Shown piece by piece: positions 4,121-62,578 of a stretch of DNA of 64,000 nt. The notes under the pieces were generated by a model. The model saw nothing but the letters and a program-made list of their open reading frames with translations. It did not search any database and was not told the DNA's origin. The stretch spans positions 768,001 to 832,000 of the forward strand of contig OZ244044.1 in the NCBI GenBank assembly GCA_965215275.1, in the 5' to 3' direction. Source of the DNA: Thermodesulfobacteriota bacterium (GTDB taxonomy: Bacteria; Desulfobacterota_D; UBA1144; Nemesobacterales; JAJCZQ01). The translations under genes and the position numbers were made by a program. Every line of letters begins with the position of its first letter. Position 1 is the stretch's first letter.

Positions 4121-4270
4121 GGGACTTATATACTTTAGTACATAAGTACTAAACATACTGTTCTGCAAGCAGAGTCCCTCTTAATTCCCCGTTCTCTTTT
4201 GATAAAACATTTACAGCCTGCATCGGGAACTCAAGTCTGGCTGTCCCACCCGACATAGTGTCTTTTCACT
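4121..4270 (-). ncRNA. Putative TnpB omega/reRNA region (boundaries uncertain)
   Basis: Position overlapping the tnpB 3' end is expected for TnpB guides; potential pairing TCGGG/CCCGA and a perfect hairpin TTTAGTAC-TTAT-GTACTAAA (4133-4152); not checked with a covariance model. Confidence 0.4.
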
Positions 4271-5602
4271 ATTGCAAATGTTTATAGCTGCATTCGTGTC
4301 TGCATGGTCTTTATGACCGCAATACACACACTTAAATACTTCTCCTTTTCTGTTCCTTTTATCTCTGTATCCGCACTCAGAACAGGTCTGTGACGTCCAT
4401 TGAGCCGGGTTCCTGATCAGCTTGCCACCAGTGCTTTTAACCTTGTATTCAAGCTGATTTAATACCTTGCCCAATTGCTGTTCCCGTAAGGACCTGTTTA
4501 ATCCAGATTTCTGCTTTACTTTCTTACCCGGATCTCCCACGGTCCCCTTTGCCGATCTGCTCATATCCCTTAATCTCAGATCTTCTGATATAACAAAATT
4601 ATACGCTCTTGACAGTTCTGTAGTTAACCTGTGTATTTTGTTATGTTCCTTTATTGCTGTTCTTGCTCGTTCCTTCCCAAGCAGTTTTACCTTCTTCTTT
4701 CTCCCGTTGGAACCTTTTTCAGCTCTTGAAACTGCTCTTTGCTTTCTTTTGTCTTTCTTTCTGCTTACTTCAGTTCCCTTGTAAAACGACCCATCTGATA
4801 AAGCAATCCTGTTCCTTACTCCAAGGTCTATTCCTATCGCTCTGTCCAGTCCTCTGTCCTCTCCAGCTATTGTTTCGTAAATAAACTGGATCTCTACTCT
4901 TAAAGCTGTTCTTAATATCCTGATGTATTTTGTTCCTTCCGGTATGCTTCCTCTGAATGAGATCCTGCCTGCTCCCTTTACCGTTAAATATGTCCTTCTC
5001 TCTCCTTTCTTTACATTTCCCCATGTATATGTTTCAAAACTTCTTACCTTCCTGCTGCTGTTCTTATATCTAGGACTGCCTCTCAATCCTTTAAGATGTT
5101 CACTGTATGCCTTATCCACTCTCTTTAACGTCCTTTGCTGTCCCTGAACGCCTGCCTTGCTGAATTCTTTCAATAAAACATCATTCCTTATCTCAGTCAG
5201 TGACTTCGCCTGATCTTCGTAACTTACTGACTTCTTCTTTATCTCCTGTTTTGTTAACTCTCTCCAGTTAACTGGATCTTCGCAAGGTCTTATAGTACTT
5301 ACAAACCTGTTAACTGCTTCATAAACTGTATCCAGATATTTAACTCTGTTCTTCTTGTTGTAAGAAGTACCAAACTCCCATTGTGGGTAGAAATACATCT
5401 GTAATCTTTCTTCTGACAAACCCCACTTCTTCAGCTTCTTGTATTTTTTGTACGCTTCTTTCCTTTCTTCCAGAGCGCTGTTATACAGATAGGTAAGCTG
5501 GTCCAAAGTCCTTTCCAAACCCTTATGAGTTGAAGGGTGATTCAATCCAGCCACTCTGCGTTCCGTCCTCGTCTGCTTAATTATCCTGTTTTCTCTATAC
5601 AT
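4211..5602 (-). CDS. tnpB: RNA-guided endonuclease TnpB (IS200/IS605 OrfB family) with N-terminal insertion
   Basis: RuvC-I GIDLG, RuvC-II SEDL, Zn finger CSECG..CVYCG, RuvC-III HADTNAAINI. Confidence 0.92.
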   Translation of the reverse strand: MYRENRIIKQTRTERRVAGLNHPSTHKGLERTLDQLTYLYNSALEERKEAYKKYKKLKKWGLSEERLQMYFYPQWEFGTSYNKKNRVKYLDTVYEAVNRFVSTIRPCEDPVNWRELTKQEIKKKSVSYEDQAKSLTEIRNDVLLKEFSKAGVQGQQRTLKRVDKAYSEHLKGLRGSPRYKNSSRKVRSFETYTWGNVKKGERRTYLTVKGAGRISFRGSIPEGTKYIRILRTALRVEIQFIYETIAGEDRGLDRAIGIDLGVRNRIALSDGSFYKGTEVSRKKDKRKQRAVSRAEKGSNGRKKKVKLLGKERARTAIKEHNKIHRLTTELSRAYNFVISEDLRLRDMSRSAKGTVGDPGKKVKQKSGLNRSLREQQLGKVLNQLEYKVKSTGGKLIRNPAQWTSQTCSECGYRDKRNRKGEVFKCVYCGHKDHADTNAAINICNSEKTLCRVGQPDLSSRCRL

Positions 5603-5730
5603 TCCTCTGTAATTATACCACGATCACACTTAGCTATTAAGTCCTTTGTTGGGTACTTAAGTATATAAGTCCCCAATTTTTTATTATGTTTATCCAACTC
5701 GTGATTTGTTTAAAGAATAAAGGTTAAGAT

Positions 5731-5868
5731 ATGGGTAGGAAACAAAAGATAATTCCCCCATTAGATGCAACATTTGATGAAGCAATAAAAATAATGTTTG
5801 CTCCCCAAATAGAACTATCTAAAAAATATAGAACTCAAAGAAAATTAAAAGAAAATGAAAAAAGTTAA
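5731..5868 (+). CDS. 45-aa micro-ORF next to element end (MGRKQKIIPPLDATFDEAIKIMFAP...)
   Basis: Manual translation; similar peptides lie next to the other TIR ends in this window. Confidence 0.5.
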   Translation: MGRKQKIIPPLDATFDEAIKIMFAPQIELSKKYRTQRKLKENEKS

Positions 5869-5954
5869 GTAAATCAAAAGATTAAATTATCTTGGGTACT
5901 AAAGTATATAGTCCCCTTTTTTATTAAAGTATATAAGTCCGTCAATTAATGATC

Positions 5955-6749
5955 CTATAAAGGTCTGTAAACGACTATTCCGGGCTTGTCCTTCAGATAA
6001 ACCAGCAGTTCCTCGTCCAGGACCCTTCTGGTATCCTTCCTTGAGGAAGCGTTACGCAGATAAACCTTACCGCCCTTTCTGATCAATATCCCTGTGTGCG
6101 AAACGTCAAGTCCGTCCTCGTCCGAATATATCCCCACGTAATCACCCGTCTTTAACTTATCGGTAACCGATCTGCTCAGCCGGGCAGAAGGGATATATGT
6201 CACTTCCCTTATAAACACCGGTATACCGTTTAAATAATTAGTGCCGTCCTTCTTTGCATTAAGTAACTTGGTCACCGAAACGGCGGACCTGCCTCCAACG
6301 GCCCTGGTCACGTCCCTGATCCTGTCCGCATCAGAACTTGGCCAGTCGGAAAAGAAATGCTTTCTGGCAGCGTATGAGACCCTTCCTCCCTTGTACCTTA
6401 CTCTGATCAGGTTATCTCTGAACTCACCGTAATCAGAAGACAGTCTGAGGGCATCCACGTAGTCAAGATAGGTAAAGCAGTCAAGTCCAGCAAGGTTAAT
6501 GGTCAAGGTCTCTCTGCTCTTATAACTGCCGATCAGCGTCAGAGGCAGATACGGAACACCAATAAAATGACCTGATATGAAGTCGATCTTTTCGCCGCTC
6601 GTCTCGTATTTAAAAGACTGCTTTATCATCTTCGACAGCCTGCTCTCTGTAAATCCTCCAAGATCAACGTACTCGTCTGCGGCGGCGTCACATGAGGCCA
6701 CTTGCAGCAGAAAGGCAAAAAGTATGAGCGACAGCGGGCTACGTTTCAT
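5955..6749 (-). CDS. DUF1460 / NlpC-P60-like N-acetylmuramoyl-L-alanine amidase
   Basis: LDCFTYLDY and GLDVSHTG motifs; signal peptide from ATG 6749 (MKRSPLSLILF). Confidence 0.85.
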   Translation of the reverse strand: MKRSPLSLILFAFLLQVASCDAAADEYVDLGGFTESRLSKMIKQSFKYETSGEKIDFISGHFIGVPYLPLTLIGSYKSRETLTINLAGLDCFTYLDYVDALRLSSDYGEFRDNLIRVRYKGGRVSYAARKHFFSDWPSSDADRIRDVTRAVGGRSAVSVTKLLNAKKDGTNYLNGIPVFIREVTYIPSARLSRSVTDKLKTGDYVGIYSDEDGLDVSHTGILIRKGGKVYLRNASSRKDTRRVLDEELLVYLKDKPGIVVYRPL

Positions 6750-6822
6750 CAAAACTGTAATATAACTGACAGCTTGCGTAATTACTGCCCGTTTTCTCCC
6801 CGGCTGAAAACACCCACCGGCA

Positions 6823-7668
6823 TCAAAACCAGAAATAAAACCCATCGGCAAAGATGAACAGTATGGCACCAAGTGATAAAAAAGGGCCATAAGGAAGTGC
6901 GAACTGAAAATCACCTCTTTTCATCAGTATCACTATGATCCCGACGACCGAACCGATAAGAGAGCTTACAAACAGTGTAAATAACACGCCTTTAACTCCA
7001 AGAAAGGCGCCAAGCATTGCAAGCAGTTTTACGTCACCCATCCCCATACCGTCGGCCTTTCTTATCAGCTTATAGACGATGGCAATAAAAAAGAGCGACC
7101 CTCCACCGATCATAATGCCTAAAAAGGAATTTACCGCCGGGACCTGAACCGCCGAGTAAACAGCCCATGACAGGTCCATATATTCGGTACCAGCGATAAG
7201 TAAGCTCCAGTCGGTTATAAACAGGTTATACAGAAACCCGATCACTATTCCAGGCAGCGTGATCACGTCCGGGATGATCATATACTTCAGGTCCACGAAC
7301 GTTACGGCGATCAGAGAAAAAGCCAGAAGTATATAGACGGCAGTTACCACCGCGACCCCGAACTTATGAAAAATAAGGACGGTAAGCAACGCGGTCAGAA
7401 GTTCCACAACGGGGTACAGAACCGATATACCCGAGCGGCAGTAAGCACACCTTCCCTTTAACAGTACATAGCTGATTACGGGAATATTATGATAGAACAT
7501 CAGATACGAATCACATATTGTGCAGCGCGACCCTGGATAGACGATCGATTCCCCTCTGGGAAATCTGTAAATAAATACGTTTATAAAGCTCCCGAACATC
7601 AGGCCTGTGATGAAAATAAACGTATAAAACACGTACGGGTAGGTCGTTAAAGTATTTATTATATCCAA
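6823..7668 (-). CDS. pilD: Prepilin peptidase (A24 family)
   Basis: GSFINV..YR, CxxC pairs, GMGMGDVKL, PYGPFL. Confidence 0.93.
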   Translation of the reverse strand: MDIINTLTTYPYVFYTFIFITGLMFGSFINVFIYRFPRGESIVYPGSRCTICDSYLMFYHNIPVISYVLLKGRCAYCRSGISVLYPVVELLTALLTVLIFHKFGVAVVTAVYILLAFSLIAVTFVDLKYMIIPDVITLPGIVIGFLYNLFITDWSLLIAGTEYMDLSWAVYSAVQVPAVNSFLGIMIGGGSLFFIAIVYKLIRKADGMGMGDVKLLAMLGAFLGVKGVLFTLFVSSLIGSVVGIIVILMKRGDFQFALPYGPFLSLGAILFIFADGFYFWF

Positions 7669-7681
7669 AGTTTTTCCGGTC

Positions 7682-9799
7682 TCAGTTCTTAGCCCTTACG
7701 GTGCTCTTGAACTCTCTTATGGACTTGTTAAAGTGCTTATTTGCAATAGTTAAAACCCCTTTTCTGCCCGCCAGGTGATCTTTTATCGCCAGAATGGCAG
7801 AACGTTTACATATGAGTTCTATGTCCGCACCGCTTAGCCTTGAAAGTTTAGACGCTATTTTTTTCAGATCCACGTCTTTGTTCAGAGGCTTATCGCTCGT
7901 ATGTATCTTTAATATCTCGTAGATCTCGTCAGCACCTGGGTACGGCACCTCAAGGATCAGGTCGAACCTTCCGGCACGCAGTATTGCCGGGTCCACCATA
8001 TCTATCCTGTTGGTCGAGGCAAGAACGAAGACGTCAACTAATTCCTCAATACCATCGATCTCCGTCAGGAACTGACTTACCACCCTTTCTGATACCCTGT
8101 TGGAGTTTATACTTCTGTGCGGAGCTATCGCATCGATCTCATCAAAGAAGATTATGGAAGGCGATACCTGTCTGGCCTTTCTGAATACCTCTATCACGGC
8201 CTTTTCAGACTCCCCAACGTACTTGGAAAGTAGTTCGGCACCTTTTACCGAAATAAAGTTCACGTTGCTCTGGTTGGCAAGTGCCTTTGCAAGCAACGTC
8301 TTGCCGGTGCCCGGTGGACCTGAGAACAGGATCCCCTTTATAGGCTTGACCTTTGCGCTCTTGAACAGTTCCTTGTGCTTAAGAGGCAGGATCACGGACT
8401 CGGTGAGCTTCTCCTTTATCCCCTCCAGTCCTCCCACGTCGTCCCAGGTTATCTTCGGTATATCAATGAGTATCTCCCTGAGTGCGGAGGGACTTACTTT
8501 TTTCAAAGCCTCAAGAAAATCGTCCATTGTCACTGTGAAGGATTCAAGGTCCTTAAATTCGAACAGTTCATCGTAGAACTCCAGATCGGGCAGGACCCTT
8601 CTGATGGTTATCATAGCCGCTTCCTTACAGAGGCTTTCTATATCGGCTCCCACAAATCCCTGGGTCCTTTCTGATATCTCGTTGAAGTCAACATCAGAAC
8701 TGAGCGGTATCCCTCCTGAATGCACCTGCAGTATCTCGTACCTGGAGTTCCTGTCCGGAACGTCAAGATGTACCTCTCTGTCGAACCTGCCGGGTCTCCT
8801 TAATGCGGGGTCGACCGCGTCCGGAAGGTTGGTTGCACCGATCACCACCACGTTATCCCTTTCCTTCAGTCCGTCCATAAGGGTCAGGAGCTGCGAAACC
8901 ACTCTTTTTTCAACGTCTCCCGTCACCTTGTCCCTTCTGGGTGCGATCGCGTCAAGTTCATCAAGAAAGATTATGGAGGGCTGATGCCTTGAGGCATTAT
9001 CAAAAAGGTTCCTGATCTTTGCTTCACTTTCACCATAGTGCTTCTGCATGATCTCCGGACCGTTAACGACCTGAAAGTTCACGTTCGCCTCATTTGCCAC
9101 CGCTCTTGCCAGAACGGTCTTTCCACTGCCTGGCTGACCAGTTAAAAGCACTCCCCTTGGCGGGTCGATCCCCAGCCTGGAGAACAGCTTGGGGAACTTC
9201 AGCGGAAGTTCTATCATATCACGTATCTTTTTTATCTGATCCGACAGCCCTCCCAGGTCATCATAGCAGACGTTGCGGGTCTCCGATCTTCCCGTCGGTT
9301 TTTTGCGCACGTCGACCCTGGTGCGGCTGCTGACCACCACGCAGTGGGACGGCATGGTGTTTAAAACGTCAAAGTTCTCGTTCTTTGCTCCCGGGATCTT
9401 CACCGGGATAGTATCACCCGCCGACAGAGGCAGACCTTCAAGGCAGCTTGATATAAACCTTAACTTTTCAGGATTGAACAGAAGATCGTTGTTGTGTGGA
9501 CACAGGATGACCCTGCTCGCGCTTTTTGAATTGGCTTTCTTCACCATCACGAACTCGTCCACGTTCGCCCTGGCGTTCTCCCTGGTGTGCAGGTCTATCT
9601 CTATTACCGATTCCGTTTCGTATTTATCATAATCGCCCGGATCAAGGGGCATGACCCTGACGAAGGTCTTTCTTCTCCCGCCGACCTCTATCGTGTCCCA
9701 GGAGGTTATACCAAGGTCCATCATGCTGCGCTCGCTCATACGAGCGTAGCCTTTTCCTGAATCACTGGGGCTTATTTCTGAAATCCTTAATGATATCAT
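7682..9799 (-). CDS. CDC48/VCP-family double AAA+ ATPase
   Basis: N-domain plus two AAA modules (GQPGSGKT, GPPGTGKT; RRPGRFDRE, LRAGRFD). Confidence 0.93.
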   Translation of the reverse strand: MISLRISEISPSDSGKGYARMSERSMMDLGITSWDTIEVGGRRKTFVRVMPLDPGDYDKYETESVIEIDLHTRENARANVDEFVMVKKANSKSASRVILCPHNNDLLFNPEKLRFISSCLEGLPLSAGDTIPVKIPGAKNENFDVLNTMPSHCVVVSSRTRVDVRKKPTGRSETRNVCYDDLGGLSDQIKKIRDMIELPLKFPKLFSRLGIDPPRGVLLTGQPGSGKTVLARAVANEANVNFQVVNGPEIMQKHYGESEAKIRNLFDNASRHQPSIIFLDELDAIAPRRDKVTGDVEKRVVSQLLTLMDGLKERDNVVVIGATNLPDAVDPALRRPGRFDREVHLDVPDRNSRYEILQVHSGGIPLSSDVDFNEISERTQGFVGADIESLCKEAAMITIRRVLPDLEFYDELFEFKDLESFTVTMDDFLEALKKVSPSALREILIDIPKITWDDVGGLEGIKEKLTESVILPLKHKELFKSAKVKPIKGILFSGPPGTGKTLLAKALANQSNVNFISVKGAELLSKYVGESEKAVIEVFRKARQVSPSIIFFDEIDAIAPHRSINSNRVSERVVSQFLTEIDGIEELVDVFVLASTNRIDMVDPAILRAGRFDLILEVPYPGADEIYEILKIHTSDKPLNKDVDLKKIASKLSRLSGADIELICKRSAILAIKDHLAGRKGVLTIANKHFNKSIREFKSTVRAKN

Positions 9800-9913
9800 C
9801 GCTCTTTACTGAATTTTTACAGACAGTTATTTTCAGGTCAAGAAGTATATATTGAAGTCGAAAAACTTTTTCTCTATAATTGTTATAATTATCCCGGTTT
9901 TACACTGACCCGC

Positions 9914-11005
9914 GTGAGATTAACTTCTTTAAATCTGAGGAATTTCAGGACTTATGAAAAGCTCAATGTATCTTTTCATGACAAGTTCAACCTCATCTAC
10001 GGGGACAACGCCCAGGGAAAGACCAACCTTCTCGAAGCCATCTACCACATCTGTTCCGCCAGACCTTTCAAGGCGGTAAAGAACGAGGAACTGATAAAAT
10101 TCGGACAGGAAGACTCCAGTATAAAGGGAGAGATAATCTCTGACCGCGGACTTGATGAGATCAATATCTATATAAGTAAGGAGAAAAAGACCTTAAAACT
10201 GAACGGCAAGATAGTCCGCAGGCTCAGCAGCAATCTGGGAAAATTCAGCATCGTGCTTTTTTTACCAAAGGACCTGGAGATCATTAAAGGTTCACCAAGC
10301 GTAAGAAGACGTTACCTTGACGCCCTTATATGCAACCTGAACCCAGACTATCTGCGGGACTTCAAGGACTACCAGAAAAACATCAATCACAGGAACAAGA
10401 TCCTTTCCGGAGCAAACCGCTTCAGTAATGCAGTGCTTGAAGTATGGGACTCCAAAGTCGCGGAAATAGGTTCAAAACTTACCAAGAAAAGGGAAGAAAC
10501 AATAACGAAGATCGCAGATAAGGTCAGTGAGCTTTACAACTCCACCTCCGGCGTTAATGCAAAGATCGAGGTCACGTACAGAACGTCCTACCAAAAAGAC
10601 GCAGACATACATGGTTCGCTCCTGAGGGCGTTAAAGGGAAACCTGGACAGGGACAGAGAAAAGGGACACACCACGGTCGGACCTCACAGGGACTATATAA
10701 GTTTTATGATAAACGGTAAGGACACGACAAAGTACGCTTCTCAGGGAGAATCCAAGAACTTCGTGCTTGCACTGAAGGCCACTGAAATATACATGTATAA
10801 CTTAATAAAAGGACAAAATCCCATTTTACTGCTTGACGACATTACAAGCGAACTCGACAGGAACCGAAGAGGTTTCCTGTTCAAACTCCTGCAGGACTAC
10901 GACGGTCAGGTGTTCGTCACCTCCACGGGTATTGAGGAAATTCCCTACGCAGGTGATAAAAAAATACTTAACGTAGTAAAAGGCACGGCAAGAGCAATTA
11001 ACTGA
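9914..11005 (+). CDS. recF: DNA replication/repair protein RecF
   Basis: GDNAQGKTNLLEA, GPHRD, SQGE, LLLDD. Confidence 0.95.
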   Translation: MRLTSLNLRNFRTYEKLNVSFHDKFNLIYGDNAQGKTNLLEAIYHICSARPFKAVKNEELIKFGQEDSSIKGEIISDRGLDEINIYISKEKKTLKLNGKIVRRLSSNLGKFSIVLFLPKDLEIIKGSPSVRRRYLDALICNLNPDYLRDFKDYQKNINHRNKILSGANRFSNAVLEVWDSKVAEIGSKLTKKREETITKIADKVSELYNSTSGVNAKIEVTYRTSYQKDADIHGSLLRALKGNLDRDREKGHTTVGPHRDYISFMINGKDTTKYASQGESKNFVLALKATEIYMYNLIKGQNPILLLDDITSELDRNRRGFLFKLLQDYDGQVFVTSTGIEEIPYAGDKKILNVVKGTARAIN

Positions 11006-11048
11006 TCTTCAGTTATAATAGCTGTAATATCAACATTCGGAGACCTAA

Positions 11049-11939: not shown

Positions 11940-12116
11940 TGTACCACGGCTTAATGGGTTGTTGTTTTAAAATCAGGGAACTATATACTTTATTCACCAG
12001 AAAACGAGTAAGGAGTTAGTACAATAATCAAATTAAATTCAGACATAGAATTAGAAAAAAATAAGGAAACAGACATAAATATTTCCTGTGGAGATACCAA
12101 TACTTTAATTAAGAAA

Positions 12117-12782
12117 GTGCAGGATAATTCCATTGATCTGATCGCTACCGACCCTCCATATCAGATTAATTTTGAAAATAATAACTGGGATAAGAAAGAC
12201 GGACTGAATTGGAACTTTTTAGCAAGTGAGTTCGCAAGGGTTTTAAAACCAAGCGGGAGTTTAATTATTTTTCAAGGATGGTCTCACGTTGCTGATACCA
12301 AGGTTATTCTGGATAAATACTTTACATTAAAAAACTGGATCATCTACGACAGAGTAAAAGGACGAGGTGCCAAGACCAACCTGGTCTCAACACGGGAAGA
12401 TATACTTTGGTATGTAGTGGATGAAGATAATTATACGTTTAACAAGGTCAGTTCCAGCATTAAAAAGAAGACAAAGGGGATGGGATTAAAGAACGGCAAT
12501 GAATTCAGGGCATTATCAAACGTCTGGTCCGACATTCCTCCACTTGTTCCCTGGAGCCAGGAAAGAGTGGATCATCCTACTCAAAAACCGCTGTATTTAA
12601 TGGATAGAATAATCAGAATATATTCAAATGAACATGATACGGTATTAGATCCTTTTTTAGGAAGCGGAACTACATCGGTTGCCTGTAAACTACTGAACAG
12701 AAACTGTATTGGTTTTGAATCAGAAAAAGAATACTTTCAGATAAACAAGGAAAGAATTAGCCATTATGGAAGACTTATTTAG
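12117..12782 (+). CDS. Beta-class DNA methyltransferase
   Basis: TDPPY, HPTQKP, DPFLGSGTT; frame is open upstream to about 12012 (possible non-canonical or mutated start ATA 12024 after AAGGAG). Confidence 0.9.
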   Translation: MQDNSIDLIATDPPYQINFENNNWDKKDGLNWNFLASEFARVLKPSGSLIIFQGWSHVADTKVILDKYFTLKNWIIYDRVKGRGAKTNLVSTREDILWYVVDEDNYTFNKVSSSIKKKTKGMGLKNGNEFRALSNVWSDIPPLVPWSQERVDHPTQKPLYLMDRIIRIYSNEHDTVLDPFLGSGTTSVACKLLNRNCIGFESEKEYFQINKERISHYGRLI

Positions 12783-13344
12783 AGATGGCATACTCAATTT
12801 AAATACTCGCCAGTTTGGAACTGCTGTAGAGCTTATTGTTGTACTGTTAAAACGTTATAGGAAAAGCAATCAGCTTGATTGTGATTTAATTGATCCAGAA
12901 ACCAATAAAAAAATAGAAGTAAAATCTTCAAGAGTTTATAAAAAGCAGTCTTTAAATTTTACTTTGGATAATCTATACGATTTAATTGTTAATAACACAA
13001 ACAGAAATCGTTTGTTAAGGCAGGATCAGGCAACACAAGAAAAGTTTGATTGCAATATACAACAGGTCAAAACAGATCTATTTGATACACTTTATTATTT
13101 ATTATTTTTCTATGATGTTATTGAAGTGTTTAAAATTGAAAATGAAGAAATACAAAAAGATGTGAATTTGAATTATAGTAATAGGCAACATAGAGGAAAC
13201 GAAGGAGAAGGTCAGTTTCACATAACACAAAAAAATTATAAATATCATAGAAATAAATACTTTATTCAGTCAATAACATATGAAGAGATTAAAAAACTAT
13301 TATTAAATAAGGAGTATTTTAATATAAAAAGAAGATCAAAATGA
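12766..13344 (+). CDS. Putative Type II restriction endonuclease (PD-(D/E)XK)
   Basis: Overlaps the MTase gene; CDLID...IEVKSS motif. Confidence 0.65.
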   Translation: MEDLFRDGILNLNTRQFGTAVELIVVLLKRYRKSNQLDCDLIDPETNKKIEVKSSRVYKKQSLNFTLDNLYDLIVNNTNRNRLLRQDQATQEKFDCNIQQVKTDLFDTLYYLLFFYDVIEVFKIENEEIQKDVNLNYSNRQHRGNEGEGQFHITQKNYKYHRNKYFIQSITYEEIKKLLLNKEYFNIKRRSK

Positions 13345-13556
13345 CAGAAAAAGAGAACTTATACAAATATATTTAATCCTCATATAACAGCAATGATGGA
13401 AGAGGTAGCTAAAGCTATATTCAGACCTAATGCTGAATTTAAAGAGAAATCTTTAAGAATGAAAACAAAAAACTAATAAAACTAAATAATAACTTTGGCG
13501 AACAAAGTATTTAGTTCCCAAAAATTATTGTTATTATATTTTCCTTTTTTTCTGAA

Positions 13557-15031: not shown

Positions 15032-15057
15032 AGTTATATACCATACACCTCCTTGAT

Positions 15058-18024: not shown

Positions 18025-18031
18025 CCGGCTT

Positions 18032-19909: not shown

Positions 19910-22571
19910 ATGTTTAAGATAATACCCCCCCCCATCTAAGTCATTACTAACTTTAGTCTTTATTCTTCTGTTTATACTGGTAATAGCTGCAAAAGGGCAG
20001 AGCAGCCTGGAAGAAACATTATCTGAATGCAGAGATATCAGTGCAGGAACGGAAGATCCGTTATACGGATGTCAGTGGCATCTGAAGAACACAGGACAGT
20101 TAATTTATTCAGGTAAGAGAATAACATCAGGAGAAGATATAAACATAGAGGGAGTGTGGAACGAAGACGTATACGGTGCCGGAATTAACGTAGCAGTAGT
20201 AAGTGACGGCATAGACCTTTCACACGAGGACCTTTCTGCTAACGTCCGTTCCGGACCGAACTATGATCTTTCTGAAAGAAACAATTCAGAAGAGAACAGT
20301 TCAGAAAAAGATAATTCAGAAAGAGATGATCTTTCAGACGGTTCATCCTTTACCGGAACACGAGCGGCAGGAGTAACAGCAGCAACTGGATATAACGGAC
20401 TGGGAGTAAGAGGAACAGCACCTGGTGCGAGTATATACAGTTACAGGTTATCCGGTGATCTCAGTGAAGCGGACGCGGTGGTCCGTAATAAGGAAATAAC
20501 GGCAGTATCGGTTAACGGCCGGGGATCTGAGGACGGAGCTTTTTTTCAGGAGGCTTTATCTTCCTGGGAAGAAGGAGTGGAACTTGGTATAAGTAAAGGG
20601 TTTTATGGTAAAGGAGTGTTTTACGTCCGGGGAGCAGGGGACGGGCATGAGAATAACGATCAGGCTAATTTTTCTGAATATTCTAATTACTACGGCGTAA
20701 CTGCCGTGTGTTCAACAGACGGCTTTGGAAAAAAGAGTATATTTTCAGAAGAGGGAGTAAATCTATGGGTATGTGCACCTGGTTCTGATATTGTAACTAC
20801 TGATAACAATAACGATTACGTTGTAACATCCGGAACTGTCCTATCAGCTTCACAGGCTGGAGGAGTGGCAGCACTGCTGAGAGAGGTGAATGGAAATCTG
20901 AGCTGGAGGGATATAAAGCTTATACTTGCGGGTTCAGCACGGCAGAACGACGTTTCTGACCTTATCTGGGAGACTGGAGCATTTAAATACGGCTCTGACG
21001 TGGAAAGATATAAATATAATCCTAAGTATGGTTTTGGAGTGGTAGACGCGGAAGCAGCGGCAGAGCTTGCAGAAAGCTGGAAAGGCGTTGGTGAGATGAG
21101 GACCGTTACAGCCTTTTCAGATAATGAGATAACAATTCCTTATGGAGAAGGGAATGGAGAAGGAGAGGCAGACGGGGTCGCTGTCTCAGGACTTATTATC
21201 CCTGACCTTGAAGAAACAACGTTTACGGAGTTCGTTGAAGTTGAACTTGTTCTCTCGTGTGACTGCTTACAGGACCTCAATATAAATATAACCTCTCCTT
21301 CCGGGACAGTATCTGAACTTGTGCGGGAGGTTGTAAGTGGACCTTCGGATGAAAAAGAAAAGAACTGCGTCAGTTACCTGAGAAGAACACATCGTTTCGG
21401 GTCGGCAAGACACCTCGGAGAAGACCCTTCCGGAGAATGGATCCTTCATATAACTGATACTGCTTATGGAGATGAAGAAAATGAAGAAAACACCGTTACC
21501 CTGCACTCATGGAGCGTTAAGGTGTATGGACATTTTTATCAGGGATCTGGCAGTGAGATCACTCCTAAAGCTTTAACCTTCGGCGGTGCGACGATCCCAA
21601 CCCAGAATTATTTTGTAGGAGAAGCAATAACACCAGTAATGCTGCCTGAGGCAACCGGGGCAAGCGACATAACATACAGTTTTAATCCTGCTTTAGCAAG
21701 AGGATTGGAATTTGATCAGGATACCCGAACTATAAGCGGAACACCAGCTATTACTCATGTGTCAGGTCGTTTGTATTCATATGTTGCAAGAGGTGGCGGA
21801 CGGATTGTAACTATACCTTTTACTATTAGAATTAGCCCTCGACGAGTGCCGACCTTCGGCAGTGAGACCATAGATAATAAAGTGTATATAAACGGCATTA
21901 CAGCAGTAAATGAAACACTGCCTGAAGCAACGGGAGGGAATGCTCCATTAACTTACAGTTTAAGCGGTACTTTACCTATTGGAGTAATTTTTACCGCAAA
22001 CACCAGAGAGTTAAGTGGAACACCCAATGTTGATAATAATCTAAGTATACTTCCTTTAACTTTGTCTTACACATATAAAGTAACAGACAATGATGGAGAT
22101 ACAGAAGAGATAACGTTCAGTATCACTACAGAAGAAGACAGCGACCCGGACTTCAGCGGTGTGACAATACCTGCTCAGGTGTACAGGGGGAGAACAATAA
22201 GTCTGCCTGAAGCAACGGGAGGGAATGCACCGTTAAGATACAGTATAGATCCTCGTTTACCGACGGGAATGAGATTGAACGAAGACACAGGGGTAATAAG
22301 CGGGACGCCCGCGAGTGCGTCGTCTGAGAGGACCTACACGTACACGGTAACGGACAGGAATGGAGGTACGGACGAGTTGACTTTCATGCTCAGTGTAGCG
22401 GCACCTCCACCGACATCAACGGGCAGTGGTTCAGGCGGAGGTGGAGGAGGATGTGCGATATCAGATCAGAGCAGCACTGCTTCTGATATTCTCGGAGTAA
22501 TGATATGTCTGATGCTCATACCTGTGTCAGTAGTGATTAGAAGGAAGAGAAGAGATCAGGTAAAGAATTAG
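19910..22571 (+). CDS. Furin/kexin-like S8 pseudo-protease with P-domain, Ig-like repeats and GlyGly-Cys C-terminal anchor; out of frame at a C9 tract
   Basis: ORF 20154-22571 extends in frame back to 19923 through a signal-peptide-like segment; the nearest ATG (19910) is out of frame across C9 at 19925-19933; catalytic residues substituted. Confidence 0.75.
19925..19933 (+). repeat. Poly-C (C9) tract at gene start; a second C9 lies at 19855-19863
   Basis: Direct reading. Confidence 0.85.
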
Positions 22572-22821
22572 CAATGAGATTATTTTCCAAAACACTGAAC
22601 GAATTAAAATCTCTCAGCCAGAATAAAGGAATAATAGTGGAAAGACTAAATATAGATCTATCGGCAAATGGGTACCTTGATGGTATTGATGCTTGTTTTT
22701 TTAATCTCGGACAATACAGTATATAATGCCCAAAGAAAAACATCTAGAAAGTAAATTAAATTACCTTATTCTTGTCTTTCTAATTGAAACAATAGTCACA
22801 ACTTATAACTTTAATCTCAGG

Positions 22822-32406: not shown

Positions 32407-32799
32407 CTATAGGTAGAAAACAAAAATAATAAACATATAACAGAAACTTAAAAAAGATAACAAAATCAGTGTTATCTCCTAATTTTCAATTTATTCAAAT
32501 CCAAAAACAAAGAATATAGCTAAAAAGGCAAAAAGAATAGAAATTATATAGGTAACTTTTTTGGGCTTCCTTACCCGAAAAATCGGGGCAAACAAACCCA
32601 TTGATCTGTTCTCGGCATTAAGCAAGTGATAACAACACCTGATTTCACGATGATTCGTCCCATGTTGACGGAAGAGTAAACAGATTATCTTTAACCGCCA
32701 CTTACTTGTTAGCCTGAGATTTTATCTCTATTCCTTTGCCAATATTCGAGAATTGGTTAAAATGAATTTTTCCACCCTATATGAAGTTTCTTTCATTAA

Positions 32800-33235
32800 G
32801 AATATTGATATTTCTACTTGAATTTATATCCTTGTTTTATAAATAACTACAATACACATACAGTTAAATATTCTCTGATACAGAGGTAATGTGGAATTAA
32901 TTCTTCCACAATCAGACCAAGTTCTTGTTGGATAATGAGAATTAACTAAAACTAACTTACCTCCAGCACTCTCATCCTTGTAAGTAAGTTACTCTTTAAT
33001 CTTTCCCCATTGCTGTTCTTTTATGAATTTAGACAGATGCGTGTGTTTTATCATATTTTGAATCTTGAAACCTTCTAACTTTATATGATTACACTTCTTT
33101 ACGATTTCAGAGTAGTTAATCTGTGTATAGAGTTAGTTTCACAATCAGTAGTTCATTCCCATTATGATAAAACCTTCTTCTTTCTGTCATTACTTCCTTT
33201 CTTAACCCTACTTATTACTCTCTGCCTACTTTTTT
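32800..33235 (-). pseudogene. tnpB remnant, C-terminal part
   Basis: Broken translation RQRVISRVKKGSNDRKKKV..IHRLTT..NMIKHTHLSK..EQQWGK..LTYKDESAGGKLVLVN..SDCG..DINSSRNI parallels the TnpB at 4211-5602. Confidence 0.8.
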
Positions 33236-33279
33236 GGGGATTATATACAAAAATACAAAAGTCACAAAGCCCTAGACAG

Positions 33280-33480
33280 TTAAGCTTTCTTTGTAGGCTT
33301 AAATGGACGCATAAATGTTTCCCTTACTTGCCTCTTTGTCATACCTGACATATTGATTTTAGCTTCTCGCTCTGTCTTGCTAGGCTGATATTTATGTAGG
33401 TCAGTTTGATGGGCTTTGTTTTTGGTATCTTCTACTTTTTTTAGCTCCCTCTTTCTTGAACTTTGCTTTAAACCACTCAT
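33280..33480 (-). CDS. 66-aa micro-ORF adjacent to the TIR
   Basis: YQPSKTERE...MTKRQVRETFMRP; points toward the element end like the other micro-ORFs. Confidence 0.5.
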   Translation of the reverse strand: MSGLKQSSRKRELKKVEDTKNKAHQTDLHKYQPSKTEREAKINMSGMTKRQVRETFMRPFKPTKKA

Positions 33481-33780
33481 AGGCGGTCCTCTGGTTGTTC
33501 TCTTTTGACCCGCGTACCTGCGTCACCAGATATAGTTAGAGGCAGTTCCTGAGCGATGTTATTCGCACCTTGATTACAAGCGCTGCACAAGGTCCGAAGG
33601 TTGTCAACTGAGTCAATATCTCCGTGGTTCCTGTCAACAATATGTGCGACATGTAGCCACGCCGGGCGGGTCCGAGCAACTATCTAAATTACCCGCCGCG
33701 ATGGTGTACATCTTGCAGGTATACCCCGTTTCATTCCAGTACTTGAACCCTAATTTTCTGTCTAACGGAGCGTGAGAATT
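33475..33780 (-). pseudogene. HNH endonuclease remnant
   Basis: Frameshifted GYTCKM...LHVAHIVDRNHG..DNLRTLCSACNQGANN. Confidence 0.65.
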
Positions 33781-33959: not shown

Positions 33960-33979
33960 TTTCTACCCTTCAGCAATAG

Positions 33980-35200
33980 TTATGCTGTTTGTTGCTCTCG
34001 TACCATACCAATAAAGTCATCAACATTCATGAGCCAAGATCGCTGTGTTTCCTGATAGGTTGCATGTAGTTCTTGTGGAAGCACAAGCTGTAATCGGTGC
34101 ACTTTCATCTCTTTTGTCTGGTTTTCACTTATGCTTGGTTCCAGAGTAATCAGATGTTTATCTGGTATTCGGGCCGCTTCAGACAACACCTGCCGCCACC
34201 GATCCTTACAGGTCGATTTTACACCAAGCATGGCCAGCCGAGATGCAGGAAAACTCTTATTATGGTATTCAACTGCACCGGGGAACAGAAAGTCCGGCTT
34301 GGCGTTGTTTTCCGTTACCACTTGCCTGTCAAAATTCAAATCATGTGCTTTGAACAATTCCGCCAAGTGATGTTCAAATGCGTATCCAACACGCGACTTG
34401 CGTCTGTTCTGTACACTCGACGAAAACTTGATAAAACCATCTACATCAGCGCCCTCATCATTCCAGAAGCCGCTTTTCAGGCGGCTAGCCACGATATGCC
34501 GTTCCATACGGCGAAACAGTTTTTCTTCCTGATTCATCCATGCCAGCAAAACCATGTCCGGGTTGCCTTGCGCTTCGACTTCCGGAATGGTCTCACGTGC
34601 AAACGCCGAAAACTCTGCAGTCGTTGGGAACACACCAGAGTAGCACTCCAGCAAAGCATCAAGCTTGTCGCCCTCCGGCTCCTCGATCTCAATTCCCAGT
34701 TCTTCAAGAATAAAACGAGCAGCAAAATCAATTTGCGTGTCGCTCCCTTTCTCATAATCCCTGTACTCAAACTTTAAGTCGAGTTGAATTGGTACACCAA
34801 ACAACCATAACAGCTGATTTTCAACAGTGCTGTTCTGCGGGACCACAATTACCATCATTTCGTTATTGGGTCTTTTGGCCACAATCAGAAGATCGTCTTC
34901 CCCTGCTATTTCCATCACCGGATTGCTGTGGAAATACAAGCGGTGTTCCGAGCGGGTAAGGTGTTTTTCCCTTGCGTCATACCACGTTACAAATGAGTCC
35001 TCTGACAGCCCTTCATTTTCTTCACCAACCCATACAAACCGGGCCGGGCAGTCTGTCAGCCTTTCTTCTCCAAGAAGTTTTTTAAGAGGAATAACACCGT
35101 TAAACTCATGCTGGTTTGATCGACTCGGACTGGCCTCAACAGCTCTAAGCCGTTTGGCGGCAACACCTTCAAAATAATCGGATAGATACCTCTGTTTCAT
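33980..35200 (-). CDS. EcoRII-family type IIE restriction endonuclease
   Basis: N-terminal AKRL..SNQHEFNG effector domain; NRRKSRVG, KPDFLFP, KSTCKDRWRQ. Confidence 0.9.
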   Translation of the reverse strand: MKQRYLSDYFEGVAAKRLRAVEASPSRSNQHEFNGVIPLKKLLGEERLTDCPARFVWVGEENEGLSEDSFVTWYDAREKHLTRSEHRLYFHSNPVMEIAGEDDLLIVAKRPNNEMMVIVVPQNSTVENQLLWLFGVPIQLDLKFEYRDYEKGSDTQIDFAARFILEELGIEIEEPEGDKLDALLECYSGVFPTTAEFSAFARETIPEVEAQGNPDMVLLAWMNQEEKLFRRMERHIVASRLKSGFWNDEGADVDGFIKFSSSVQNRRKSRVGYAFEHHLAELFKAHDLNFDRQVVTENNAKPDFLFPGAVEYHNKSFPASRLAMLGVKSTCKDRWRQVLSEAARIPDKHLITLEPSISENQTKEMKVHRLQLVLPQELHATYQETQRSWLMNVDDFIGMVREQQTA

Positions 35201-35210
35201 CTTCTTGCTA

Positions 35211-36821: not shown

Positions 36822-36893
36822 TATTGTGGCTAAATGGTATTGCTTCGGGCGGATAATGTCAAGTGAATTTGTGACTTTATGTATATAATTTCC

Positions 36894-37190
36894 ATCTTTT
36901 TTACTCTTTAAATATTCTAAATAGATTCTATCCAACCTATCTAAAACACTTCTTTGAACTTCGCAGTTAAACTTATCAAAATCTTTGTTTTTTTCTCTTA
37001 TCTTCCGTTAAGGAATTAAACTGGTCGTATTTAGATATGTTTTTCTTATACCATTTATAAGATTTTAATCTGTGATATAAAGTTCCATCGTATAAATCAG
37101 ATGATTGTCCTAATAACTCGTCTAACTTGTTATGAAAATTCTTACTCGTTTTTACTGTCTTACTTATCGTTCATAACATCCTGATAATAT
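36894..37190 (-). pseudogene. tnpB remnant, N-terminal part
   Basis: [56 protein letters not shown] aligns by eye to the TnpB N-terminus. Confidence 0.75.
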
Positions 37191-37256
37191 TACTATAAAT
37201 CCACAGGTTCTCAAGTGCTTTACTTGCTTTTTTATCAACTTTCCTACATATTTCCT

Positions 37257-59630: not shown

Positions 59631-60119
59631 ACGAAATTGCCATCTGCTCAATTGCCGAGTTTCACAAAAAACTGCAAAAACATAAGAAATTTGACAAAAT
59701 GCTAATGTCTTGCCCTTTCAGGATCCATTTTAGAAAAATTAGCAATTTCTTCTAATGTTTCTTTAGGTCTATAGTAAAACCATCTCTTGCAGTATTAATT
59801 ACTGAAGTTTTAATATAAATATAGGGAACTATATGCTTTGTTCACCAAAGTTATTATTTAGTTTTTTTCTCAAGGATTTCTCCTCGCTTTTTAACAGATT
59901 CAGCATTAGGTATGAATATAGCTTTAGCTACCTAATTTATCGTTGATAGTATATTAGAAATAAATCTATATTGTATAAGTTATCTTTTTTTCCTGTCATT
60001 TTATGTACAGATTGCTGATTTTTTCTTTATGTATAGCTAATTTGGGAATTGTATAACCACCATGTTCAACGCGTTAGCAAAAAATCTCATTTAAATTCCC
60101 CTTTTTCCTTGAGCAAAGT

Positions 60120-60578
60120 TCATAACTCTAAAAATTTCCACTCATCCGTACGCTTATAACTTAAATCTATATCTAATTGATTTGCTGCCCAATTATTAAG
60201 TTTGTTTATAAGATCTGGGTTATAAACAAATTCCTTATGGACTCCTAATTCCTTAAATATTACCTTCGTAATTCGTTCACGCGCCCTTGCACCGTTAAAA
60301 ACCACTCCGTTGCATTTAAATGCTCGACCAGTATAGTTCCTGTAATCCAGTATTTTTCTAAGTTTCCTATAATTCATTTCTTTGTATCCAACAAATTTGC
60401 CAATTCCAAATTGAGAGGTGTCAGTGTCATAAACCCAATTATGTTTTCCTGATTTAAAGTAATTACTTTTCATATATCCCCTAAATTCTAAATTATCTTC
60501 TGCCTCTTCATTTAATGTTACAATATTATCCTTAATATCCTGTATTGTTGACACAAAATATAAATCGGGCTTTTGCAT
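60120..60578 (-). CDS. Hypothetical protein
   Basis: 152 aa with AAGGAG RBS; passenger of the IS1595 element. Confidence 0.6.
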   Translation of the reverse strand: MQKPDLYFVSTIQDIKDNIVTLNEEAEDNLEFRGYMKSNYFKSGKHNWVYDTDTSQFGIGKFVGYKEMNYRKLRKILDYRNYTGRAFKCNGVVFNGARARERITKVIFKELGVHKEFVYNPDLINKLNNWAANQLDIDLSYKRTDEWKFLEL

Positions 60579-60748
60579 GTTGTATACTCCTTTACTATTG
60601 AATTTTTTTGTTTTTTACTTTTATAGGTTTGTTGATAAAAATAATTCGGGTTTTGCCCATGTTTATCCTTCGTCGGTTATTGTAACATAAGAAAATTAAA
60701 ATAACTATTCTTGACTTAAGTTAGAATAAAGAGTAGTATTCTATAACG

Positions 60749-62216
60749 ATGCAAGGTTCTATCCCCCCCCCCCCCAGAAAATCGCACACTTTATGCAGAC
60801 GATTGTCTGAATGTCCTGAACGATACGTCAAAATTTCCTGATGAGTGTATAGATTTAATCTATTTAGACCCACCATTTAATTCAAACCAAACTTACAACT
60901 TGCCTTTTAAGAGGAAACTAAAGGAGGTTAAACCAGTTGAAGTATTTAAAGATACTTGGACTTGGGGACAAGAAGAAGATGAGATGTTAGAAGGTTTTAA
61001 AAGCAGTAGTAATCCGAATGTAAAAAAGTTGGCGGATTTGGTCTTTCTTGCTCGGTCAATAAACGATGAAAGAACTAAAACAAGAAGTGCAGCTGCTTAT
61101 TTGTGTAACATGGCTATCAGACTTCTATCAATGAAACGAGTATTAAAAAATACGGGAAGTATTTATCTCCATTGTGACCCTACTATGAGCCATTATTTGA
61201 AATTGTCGTTGGATTTGATATTTGGTAGAAAAAATTTTAGAGATGAGATTGCATGGCATTATCCAAGTATGAGCAAGAGATTGTCTGGCTTTCCTAAAAA
61301 ACATGACACAATATTCCGATACACAATGAGTGATAATTATATTTTTAATTATAAAAATATCTTAATACCTTATGCAAAAAGTACAGTAAATAGATCAAAA
61401 TACGGAGGTGCAGGTTTTAAAAGAAAAGAAGGATATTCTAACTATCTTGTGAGAGAAGGTAAAATACCCGATTCAGTATGGAACATTCCACATATTAAAA
61501 GTAAAAATGAACACTTAGGCTACCCTACACAAAAGCCTCTGAAACTACTTGAACGAATAATCAAGGCAAGTAGTAATGAAGGTGATTTAGTTCTTGATCC
61601 TTTTTGTGGATGTGGAACTGCTGTTCATGCTGCAGAAGATCAAAAGAGAAACTGGATAGGGATAGATATATCAAAGTTCTCTACTGGACTTATAAGTGAG
61701 CGTATCTGTAACAATTTTCCTAAATTGCAGAGTAGTGATATAAGAATTTTTAATGTTCCTGACAATTTACAGAGTGCCAGAAACTTAGCAAAACAAGACC
61801 CGTTTGAGTTCGAGAAATGGGTATGTGGGGAGATCGGTGCTCATGGCATGTTCCGTGAACCAGGAAGGAAAGGATCAGACGGTGGGGTTGACGGCATTAT
61901 TGACTTTGGATTGTTTAAGGGGCTTAATAAACTTAGTAAAGGTTATGCTATCGTTCAAGTTAAAGGTGGAAAAGTAACTCCAGATTCAGTTAGAGCATTA
62001 TATCAGACTGTAAAATTTTTTGGTGCAACAGCAGGGGTTTTTGTTTGTTTTAATGAATATATGAACACAGTTGAAAACAACAGAAACAAAGATACTTACA
62101 ACGACCTGACAGGAATATACCCCTTAATTCAAGGATTCAGTGTAGAAGACTTGCTTGCAAAGAAAAAACCTAATCTACCACCACTTGTGATTAGAGAAAA
62201 CGCATTGTTTACTTGA
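60749..62216 (+). CDS. Beta-class DNA MTase fused to an Mrr-like endonuclease domain; out of frame at a C13 tract
   Basis: In-frame upstream extension ENRTLYADDCL..DLIYLDPPFNS contains the catalytic DPPF; YPTQKP, DPFCGCGT; C-terminal DGGVDG..VQVKGG; ATG 60749 is out of frame across C13 (60763-60775). Confidence 0.85.
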
Positions 62217-62222
62217 TAGAGT

Positions 62223-62540
62223 TTACTGTACTAATTCCTTATATGTAATCCTCTTCCCATCTAACCCGTTAACTACATTCTCAATTTGGTTTATTATCGG
62301 TAATGGTCTGCTGTCGTGCCTTCCAACATGCTCATCAACATAGCGTTGCAGGTGCTTTTTGCTCATATAGTGGTATGTTCCAATATATCCTCTTTTTAAC
62401 ATAGACCAAAAACTTTCTATCTCGTTGGCATGAACTTGACCTTTAATGTACTCACCTACTCAATGATTTACAGATTCATGCCTATATAACTTCTTATTCA
62501 ACCCAATATATCCTAAATTCTAATCCGTATAAATTGTGTC
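62223..62540 (-). pseudogene. IS1595-family (ISXO2-like) transposase, C-terminal remnant
   Basis: IYTD*...HESVNH*VGEYIKGQVHANEIESFWSMLKRGYIGTYHYMSKKHLQRYVDE...GKRITYKEL; two in-frame stops. Confidence 0.9.
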
Positions 62541-62578
62541 AAGCAATCTTTATAAGTCTCTGAATTTTTTTGAAGTGT

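What the first reader, a model, noticed from the sequence alone, without database searches (positions are those of the whole stretch)
4121..62560. Family of non-autonomous IS1595-like cassettes delivering R-M and nuclease cargo at four sites
Seen: related ends bound 4121-5941 (TnpB), 11976-13519 (MTase+REase), 33236-36893 (EcoRII-like, Dcm-Vsr, HNH remnant) and 59824-~62560 (MTase-Mrr, transposase remnant). About 180 bp at 13341-13519 is homologous to the reverse complement of 59824-60000, including a decayed transposase tail resembling GKRITYK. Known: IS1595 members form transporter IS and minimal insertion cassettes with 8-bp TSDs. Inference: this lineage uses a TIR-cassette system to shuffle defence and methylation modules around the chromosome.
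Basis: partly seen in the sequence, partly recalled or inferred. Interest (0 to 1): 0.75.

Follow-up and report, generated by a model that had tools for sequence, protein, structure and literature searches.

The report
IS1595 shells carrying enzymes and TnpB
The four sites are worn copies of a jumping-gene family (IS1595) whose ends occur about 180 times in this genome and enclose DNA methylases, restriction enzymes and the RNA-guided nuclease TnpB; the transposase-less copies are likely moved by intact transposases elsewhere in the genome, a known kind of gene delivery, and the TnpB copies carry a one-sided insertion motif and an end-hairpin predicted to let the nuclease recognise the empty site.

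Summary
Largely real, known in kind. The ends are IS1595 terminal inverted repeats (TIRs): 183 sites genome-wide against 1 per control, and 14 full-length transposase frames. Sites 1 and 2 are empty in 4 of 4 relatives; site 2 breaks exactly at the TIRs. Site 3 interrupts a dead tnpB. Corrections: no window cassette has a perfect target duplication (three have 6/8); site 4 has one TIR and is a truncated transposase-bearing element; GKRITYK lies at 62238-62258, not in the 180-bp homology. Methylases are enriched beside TIRs (9 of 23 against 83 of 1031), but so are 57 S8-peptidase genes, so cargo is not only defence. Most interesting: 19 tnpB-only units lie directly between TIRs (9 with perfect 8-bp duplications), with family-specific one-sided flank motifs and a hairpin that uses the downstream TIR. 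R-M cassettes with inverted repeats and DDE-linked TnpB are published in outline. This scan found TnpB-in-IS1595 before (13 notes, at least 9 genomes) and R-M-in-IS1595 repeatedly. New variant of a known kind.

The parts
4121..4145 (-). IS1595-type TIR, downstream end of the tnpB unit; its inner half pairs with the subterminal sequence in a predicted hairpin
4121..4260 (-). predicted omegaRNA scaffold (four helices, compensatory changes between TnpB families A and B)
4211..5602 (-). tnpB, 463 aa, family A; RuvC D259/E340/D435 and C4 zinc finger intact; three other copies at 93-95% identity
5649..5673 (-). TIR, upstream end of the 1553-bp tnpB unit (same length in four copies)
5731..5868 (+). 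45-aa small ORF of a family found next to IS1595 right ends; no Pfam match
5892..5916 (-). second stacked TIR (end of another IS1595 copy, 92% identical to G000:889015-889218 over 204 nt)
5917..5941 (-). outermost TIR of site 1; 6 of 8 flank match with 4121
11976..12000 (+). left TIR of site 2
12117..12782 (+). N6/N4 DNA methyltransferase, 221 aa
12766..13344 (+). type II restriction enzyme-like ORF, 192 aa (PADLOC REase_II, E 3.9e-08)
13341..13519 (+). IS1595 right-terminal segment with decayed small ORF and TIR (13495-13519)
32769..33235 (-). 3' part of a dead family-B tnpB, outside site 3
33236..33260 (+). left TIR of site 3
33480..33683 (-). HNH endonuclease remnant
33980..35200 (-). EcoRII-like restriction enzyme, 406 aa
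35211..36821 (-). Dcm-type C5 methyltransferase fused to Vsr (536 aa from the first start inside the TIR)
36869..36893 (-). right TIR of site 3
36894..37256 (-). 5' part and worn upstream TIR of the same dead family-B tnpB unit
59824..60002 (-). single TIR (59824-59848) and right-terminal segment of site 4
60120..60578 (-). 152-aa ORF without Pfam or PADLOC match
60900..62216 (+). N6/N4 methyltransferase fused to an Mrr-like nuclease domain
62222..62537 (-). C-terminal half of an IS1595 transposase with stops; GKRITYK at 62238-62258; N-terminal half and left TIR missing
20154..22731 (+). second S8 peptidase gene with an inward TIR 160 nt downstream (ends 22731)

Best explanation
The four sites are decayed members of an IS1595 family that has spread through this genome, and the copies without a transposase gene are likely moved in trans by the intact IS1595 transposases, which would cut at the shared 25-bp inverted ends and leave 8-bp target duplications. 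Shown: ends, duplications, intact transposase frames, cargo and empty orthologous sites. Site 2 is a methylase-plus-nuclease cassette inserted before tRNA-Pro. Site 3 is an R-M-Vsr cassette that landed inside a tnpB unit. Site 4 is the right half of a transposase-bearing transporter IS. Site 1 is a tnpB-only unit with further ends stacked on its upstream side. Inferred: R-M cargo persists because methylase-nuclease pairs are hard to lose and give phage defence. TnpB units likely work as selfish homing devices: the RNA scaffold would run through the downstream TIR, the guide would start at the duplicated target and run into the flank, and the family-specific bases just before the upstream duplication (TG|T for family B, TA|A for C, mostly WA|T for A) would serve as the TAM, so that TnpB would cut the empty allele and repair would copy the element in.
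For: 183 TIR sites against 1, 1, 1 in controls. 20 of 178 left/right pairs within 25 kb have a perfect 8-9 bp duplication against 16 of 7818 distant pairs. 28 PF12762 matches, 14 full-length in open frames of 300 aa or more; 7 of 7 tested pass NF033547. Sites 1 and 2 lack cargo and TIRs in G001, G002, G003 and G017, and G001 holds one copy of the site-2 target. The tnpB halves around site 3 align to positions 1-361 and 723-1193 of an intact unit. Methylases: inward TIR within 1.5 kb for 9 of 23 (both sides 7) against 83 of 1031 (both sides 8), p 6e-5; outward-facing TIRs show no clear excess (5 of 23 against 147 of 1031, no test run). TnpB: 19 two-ended units, 9 perfect and 14 with at most 2 mismatches; each has ends 17-25 of 25 identical to ends of transposase-bearing elements; no serine recombinase and one weak Y1 match in the genome. 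G at -1 in 7 of 7 family-B units against 1 of 26 flanks of non-TnpB elements (p 2e-6) and 2 of 7 on the mirror side; first duplicated base T 8/8 (A), T 8/8 (B), A 3/3 (C), A 23/23 (family D in relatives). The downstream end folds more stably than the upstream end in 48 of 55 units. For two family-D units in G017, all 29 other genomes examined have the empty site with one copy of the target (29 of 30 loci each).
Against: No window cassette has a perfect duplication; 6 of 8 arises by chance in 6% of pairs, and for site 1 I chose among three ends. Contigs of four runs gave no empty allele for sites 1 or 2. The whole 31.3-41.8 kb island is absent in 4 of 4 relatives, so the site-3 TIRs are not the presence/absence breakpoint there. 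No RNA data: scaffold, guide and TAM are predictions. The five-letter family-D motif RWNR|A fitted only 3 of 5 held-out units against 1 of 5 on the mirror side (p 0.52), and 3 of 12 new units did not start with A. Transposase-bearing elements also fold somewhat better at the downstream end (12 of 18; mean -3.6 against -1.8 kcal/mol). Copies are related, so p-values overstate. A review suggests that IS1595 excision may be replicative (PMC5704250, passage), which would leave no empty donor site for TnpB to restore.
Confidence: 0.8

Rival explanations
1. The ends and cargo are real, but TnpB is a passive passenger: the one-sided flank motif is the transposase's own target preference, and the hairpin acts in DNA or as a terminator.
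For: No RNA or activity data. All IS1595 targets here are A/T-rich, so A at -1 (families A, C) is common in non-TnpB elements too (15 of 26). The held-out motif test was not significant. At least 2 of 19 units are frameshifted, and further dead copies exist.
Against: The motif is one-sided relative to tnpB and differs between TnpB families that use near-identical ends (G at -1: 7 of 7 in B, 0 of 7 in A plus C, p 6e-4). RuvC D-E-D is invariant in 8 of 8 aligned proteins. Helices covary (8 of 25 pairs, with the caveat that this reflects mainly the split between two families).
Confidence: 0.3
2. The TIR pairs around R-M genes are chance neighbours: IS1595 copies insert into A/T-rich defence islands, decay to lone ends, and only appear to enclose cargo.
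For: 66 of 193 ends (score 14 or more) stay unpaired, and several automatic pairs enclose housekeeping genes with mismatched flanks. Sites 3 and 4 lie in larger variable islands. 14 of 23 methylases have no inward TIR nearby.
Against: Six transposase-plus-methylase elements have perfect duplications. Site 2 breaks exactly at both TIRs against G001. Site 3 splits one gene into two near-contiguous halves. The enrichment is for inward-facing ends.
Confidence: 0.1
3. The host has domesticated the family as a cassette system that reshuffles defence and methylation modules.
For: Methylase enrichment; many different R-M types as cargo.
Against: No common receiving site, no single conserved transposase, much decay, non-defence and selfish cargo, one element splits a host methylase gene, and family-level relatives lack the expansion (3 matches each in G001 and G002).
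Confidence: 0.12

Closest known systems
Transporter IS (tIS) of the IS1595 family, e.g. MTnSag1 and tISCpe8 (TnCentral preprint 10.1101/2021.05.26.445724, passages; PMC5704250, passages)
   Same: 25-bp TIRs, 8-bp target duplication, IS1595 transposase plus passenger genes. Site 4 and six elements elsewhere in the genome have this layout.
   Different: Cargo here is R-M, HNH and peptidase genes rather than antibiotic resistance; site 4 has lost its left half.
Transposon-like R-M units flanked by inverted repeats (Furuta, Abe and Kobayashi 2010, PMC2853133; abstract and passages); mobile insertion cassettes such as MIC231 (recalled, not read)
   Same: R-M genes between imperfect inverted repeats, no transposase, 8-bp duplication against an empty site; trans mobilisation suggested there. 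Sites 2 and 3 match.
   Different: Here the mobilising family is identifiable and abundant in the same genome; the window duplications are worn (6 of 8).
DDE-transposase-associated TnpB branches DDE-1 to DDE-6 and solo TnpBs with the same ends (Altae-Tran et al. 2023, PMC10691335; passages and supplement part 3 of 5); review PMC13565253 (passages)
   Same: TnpB between inverted terminal repeats, 3' end close to the element end, solo copies moved in trans.
   Different: The text I saw names IS630 (and the review ISL2, IS630, IS1031). IS1595 appears only in a list of profiles. Figure 4 and the additional files were not visible, so one DDE branch may be IS1595. No TAM or hairpin analysis for such elements in the passages read.
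Fanzor in eukaryotic TIR transposons (Yoon et al. 2023, PMC10711439; passages)
   Same: [quoted passage not shown]
   Different: These are canonical prokaryotic TnpBs (NF040570). The 8-bp duplication is variable except for its first base, so it is more likely guide than scaffold (inference).

Membership tests
IS1595 family | DDE transposase of PF12762 / NF033547 | tested here: met
   28 matches in the genome, 14 full-length; 7 of 7 above cut-off; in the window only a C-terminal remnant at site 4
IS1595 family | about 25-bp terminal inverted repeats shared with the transposase-bearing elements | tested here: met
   site 4 has one end only
IS1595 family | 8-bp target-site duplication | tested here: met
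   genome-wide 20 of 178 pairs perfect; window sites 1-3 only 6 of 8, site 4 none
IS1595 family | transposition activity of the enzyme on these ends | not testable with these tools
   needs an assay
Transporter IS (tIS) | transposase plus passenger genes between one TIR pair | tested here: met
   six genome elements; site 4 is a truncated case; sites 1-3 have no transposase and are not tIS
Mobile insertion cassette / transposon-like R-M unit | cargo between TIRs, no transposase | tested here: met
   sites 2 and 3
Mobile insertion cassette / transposon-like R-M unit | empty site with one target copy in a relative | tested here: met
   site 2 in G001; site 3 only through the interrupted tnpB; site 1 empty but too diverged to read the target
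IS200/IS605 or IS1341 TnpB element | no TIR, no target duplication, Y1 TnpA available | tested here: not met
   TIRs and 8-bp duplications present; one weak Y1 match far from any tnpB; below the NF038281 cut-off
IS607 TnpB element | serine recombinase TnpA, no TIR or duplication | tested here: not met
   no PF00239 match in a 99.87% complete genome; below the NF038280 cut-off
OMEGA (TnpB) RNA-guided nuclease | intact RuvC D-E-D and zinc finger | tested here: met
   NF040570 above cut-off for families A, B, C
OMEGA (TnpB) RNA-guided nuclease | structured RNA at the 3' end running to the element end, guide outside it | tested here: inconclusive
   predicted helices and covariation; no RNA reads
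OMEGA (TnpB) RNA-guided nuclease | TAM-dependent cleavage of the empty site | not testable with these tools
   one-sided flank bias only
DDE-1 to DDE-6 TnpB branches | placement in one of the six published branches | not tested
   branch members are in files that I could not see

The most novel reading that the evidence does not exclude
IS1595 ends act here as a general gene-amplifying shell, and at least two TnpB lineages have been rewired to ride it as active homing nucleases: the transposon's own inverted repeat forms the last hairpin of the guide RNA, the target duplication starts the guide, and a family-specific TAM has been imposed on insertion sites, a bacterial parallel of Fanzor. The same shell drove a 57-copy expansion of S8-protease-like surface proteins, and CRISPR-array-bearing TnpBs (L055, L281) arose from within these TIR-riding clades.
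Probability: 0.35. Interest if true: 0.72.

Novelty: new variant of a known kind. Interest (0 to 1): 0.45.

Why it matters
R-M genes carried by IS1595 shells are a known route for spreading defence genes, so that part is a good example rather than a discovery. The genome is useful because one transposon family carries several cargo classes side by side, with built-in controls. How TnpB copes with a DDE transposon that makes a variable 8-bp duplication is an open question (PMC13565253, passages). Here three TnpB families share the same ends but show different one-sided flank motifs, which gives direct TAM and guide-boundary predictions for a plasmid assay, and compact nucleases with very short predicted TAMs. 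The link between the ends and a 57-copy protease-like family points to transposon-driven gene-family expansion in a small genome.

Tried and rejected
IS605 or IS607 elements nested in an IS1595 shell: rejected; no serine recombinase, one weak unrelated Y1 match, and tnpB starts about 70 nt inside the upstream TIR. Flank swapping between family-A copies as the cause of missing duplications: no left flank matches another copy's right flank by inspection. Filled/empty polymorphism in public runs: contigs of X2, X5, X6 and X8 on window 1-20000 gave no joint across site 1 or site 2 as a clean empty allele (contigs show presence, not absence); no RNA holder listed. No read evidence was obtained for sites 3 and 4. 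A partner TIR for site 4 and an outer TIR for the 31.3-41.8 kb island: none above noise. Target duplications around S8 genes: with a strict 14-nt filter 7 of 57 had both ends, 0 with at most 1 mismatch and 2 with at most 2 (permutation p 0.07); with the 27-nt matrix 7 of 57 had both ends at score 8 or more, and 2 of these had 1 mismatch; so S8 cassettes are suggested, not shown. A five-letter TAM for family D did not pass a held-out test. The tree is the quick version only; 45 of 136 rows were dropped as near-copies, and no single- or double-origin test was run. Relatives of the CRISPR-linked L055 protein: only G019 among 120 genomes at high identity, one 78% homologue without context. Literature searches: TnpB + IS1595 (9 papers, none on this by listing); TnpB + IS1595-like or ISXO2 (0); IS1595 + minimal insertion cassette (0); (listings). 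One review of insertion sequences that I tried by id was not held, and I did not read Siguier 2009. The protein-representative search gave no context and was not used further.


Full report
Setting. The window is G000:C1:768001-832000 of a 1.99-Mb single-contig genome. A same-order genome (G019) encodes a protein that sources name as from Candidatus Dadabacteria.

1. The ends are real. A matrix trained on the genome's own sites (consensus GGGAATTATATACTTTAGTACCCAAA) finds 183 sites at score 16 or more, against 1, 1 and 1 in a reversed and two block-shuffled genomes. Of 178 left/right pairs within 25 kb, 20 have a perfect 8-9 bp duplication exactly at the termini; 16 of 7818 distant pairs do. 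PF12762 has 28 matches, 14 of them full-length in open frames of 300 aa or more, and 7 of 7 tested pass NF033547. This is an IS1595 expansion; G001 and G002 have 3 matches each.

2. The four sites. Site 1: a 1553-bp tnpB unit (4121-5673) with three other copies of the same length and two more ends stacked upstream (5916, 5941). The outer pair matches 6 of 8 in its flanks. Site 2: methylase plus REase-like ORF between two TIRs, flanks TAAAATCA and AAAAATTA. Both sites lack cargo and TIRs in G001, G002, G003 and G017, and G001 has one copy of the site-2 target exactly where the TIRs break. Site 3: HNH remnant, EcoRII-like enzyme and Dcm-Vsr between TIRs with 6 of 8 flank match. It lies inside a dead family-B tnpB whose halves align to positions 1-361 and 723-1193 of an intact unit; the first bases after the cassette resemble the direct continuation, so the missing 350 or so bases look like a separate deletion (inference). 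The surrounding 31.3-41.8 kb island is absent in G001-G004, so relatives cannot test this pair. Site 4: one TIR, a terminal segment, MTase-Mrr and the C-terminal half of a transposase; no partner TIR. G002 has the neighbouring SNF2 and Eco57I genes but no MTase-Mrr match in the 19 kb fetched; the other three loci did not cover or lacked this island. The 180-bp homology is the right-terminal segment of a subfamily (79% to G000:1004999-1005187), not a transposase tail; GKRITYK is at 62238-62258. Chance gives 2 or fewer flank mismatches in 6% of unrelated pairs, so each 6-of-8 match is weak alone.

3. Cargo genome-wide. Elements with transposase, methylase cargo and perfect duplication: 675417-678070, 1002026-1005187, 1304051-1307389, 1516018-1519071, 1812584-1815955 and the composite 1532715-1540173. 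I scanned the cargo of 20 regions chosen from 72 automatic pairs; several long pairs enclose housekeeping genes with mismatched flanks and are not elements. Of 23 methylase loci (29 matches, less 6 rows that were second pieces or halves of split genes), 9 have an inward TIR within 1.5 kb and 7 have both, against 83 and 8 of 1031 other ORFs (p 6e-5). Fourteen have none, and G002 has 18 N6/N4 matches with few IS1595 copies. The genome also holds 57 S8-peptidase matches (0, 1, 0, 0 in four family relatives); 23 have an inward TIR within 1 kb against 54 of 1031 (p 1e-13), two of them in the window, but duplications around them are not significant. So the shell carries defence genes often, not exclusively.

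4. TnpB units. PF07282 has 23 matches; 19 are two-ended units of 1289-1561 bp in three families (A 463-485 aa, B 407 aa, C 400-405 aa), 9 with perfect and 14 with near-perfect duplications. RuvC D-E-D is invariant in the 8 aligned. Their ends match ends of transposase-bearing elements at 17-25 of 25 positions. There is no serine recombinase and one weak Y1 match. The same layout occurs in G017 and G021 and in named Dadabacteria/Thermodesulfobacteriota, Dehalococcoidia, Caldilineaceae and Rhodothermales records: 39 of 172 evaluable loci had both ends and 52 the downstream end. For two G017 units, 29 of 30 orthologous loci are empty with one target copy, the 30th being the source (30 of 35 and 30 of 36 matches were fetched). 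In a quick tree of 91 proteins the 27 TIR-bound rows fall in two well-supported clades (no origin test).

5. Predicted mechanism. The last 140 nt of families A and B fold into four helices, 8 of 25 pairs with changes on both sides; most of this signal is the A/B split, and the structure came from the same alignment. The last helix pairs subterminal sequence with the inner TIR: the final 40 nt fold at -7.9 kcal/mol on average (19 downstream ends) against -2.6 (19 upstream ends) and -3.3 (152 other ends); downstream beats upstream in 48 of 55 units, but also in 12 of 18 transposase elements, more weakly. Flanks are one-sided: G at -1 in 7 of 7 B units (1 of 26 in non-TnpB elements, 2 of 7 mirror), A at -1 in 7 of 7 A and C units (not rare: 15 of 26 in controls), and a fixed first duplicated base per family. 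Pooled family D has a purine at -1 in 22 of 22 against 10 of 22 mirror, but the longer motif fitted only 3 of 5 held-out units. I read this as scaffold through the TIR, guide from the duplication onward, and TAM just upstream, giving homing into empty alleles. All of these steps are inferred. If IS1595 copies itself out without excision (PMC5704250, passage), the target would be empty sister or incoming alleles rather than a vacated donor site.

6. Known art. tIS are defined for IS1595 (TnCentral preprint, passages). R-M genes between inverted repeats with 8-bp duplication were described in 2010 (PMC2853133, abstract and passages). Six DDE-linked TnpB branches with inverted ends and solo copies moved in trans were described in 2023 (PMC10691335, passages and supplement part 3). 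A review names ISL2, IS630 and IS1031 (PMC13565253, passages). My searches found no paper naming IS1595 as the TnpB carrier, but Figure 4 and the additional files of the 2023 paper were not visible and may bear on this. TIR-in-scaffold is reported for Fanzor (PMC10711439, passages). Earlier notes of this scan report TnpB in IS1595 ends 13 times in at least 9 genomes, once in this genome, and R-M cassettes of this type at least 8 times; none matched the S8 link. These notes are leads, not support.

7. Verdict. Observation partly confirmed, interpretation partly supported. The R-M cassette part is a new member of a known kind. The TnpB part is a new variant, with testable TAM and guide predictions from three families sharing one set of ends. 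Interest 0.45.

Noticed in passing
G000 genome-wide; window 20154-22571 and 26672-29002: 57 S8 peptidase / P-domain / He_PIG genes (0-1 in four family relatives), domain identity median 64%; most lack the catalytic His motif by inspection; 23 of 57 have an inward IS1595 TIR within 1 kb.
   Followed up: partly
L055:407-539 (G019:C4): A TnpB nested in one TIR-bound clade has no TIRs and is followed by a CRISPR-like array of three repeats (two full 39-nt copies, 27-nt spacers) whose end resembles the TIR terminus; no IS1595 match in that genome.
   Followed up: partly
L281:3159-3430 (SAR202 bin22): A TnpB nested in the other TIR-bound clade is followed by five repeats at 61-nt spacing, another CRISPR-like array.
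   Followed up: partly
window 5731-5868; G000 at 10 or more IS1595 right ends: A family of about 45-aa ORFs sits 45-120 nt inside IS1595 right TIRs; no Pfam match; function unexplained.
   Followed up: partly
G000:1001574-1005568: The transporter IS 1002026-1005187 splits a resident N6/N4 methyltransferase gene into two halves.
   Followed up: no
G000:17470-21955: Two small TIR-bounded units enclose an ABC ATPase and TPR-repeat genes, with a perfect 8-bp duplication around the whole.
   Followed up: partly
window 22822-26097: Dcm methylase plus two ORFs (one with a weak PD-Lambda-5_A / PDC-M38A match) lie between two outward-facing TIRs (22731 and 26417).
   Followed up: no
window 13939-16518: ThsB TIR-domain gene and two unannotated ORFs directly after tRNA-Pro; absent next to tRNA-Pro in the G002 region fetched.
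   Followed up: no
window 62528-63111 and G000:832395-837335: The DUF1232 gene region repeats four more times just beyond the window end at 70-76% identity.
   Followed up: no
window 31357-41800: Island absent in 4 of 4 relatives: PDC-S11-like nuclease, dead tnpB, site 3, HipA-like gene and an ATPase.
   Followed up: partly
G000:1616480-1619604: Two family-A tnpB units sit head to head, 16 bp apart, each with its own target duplication.
   Followed up: no
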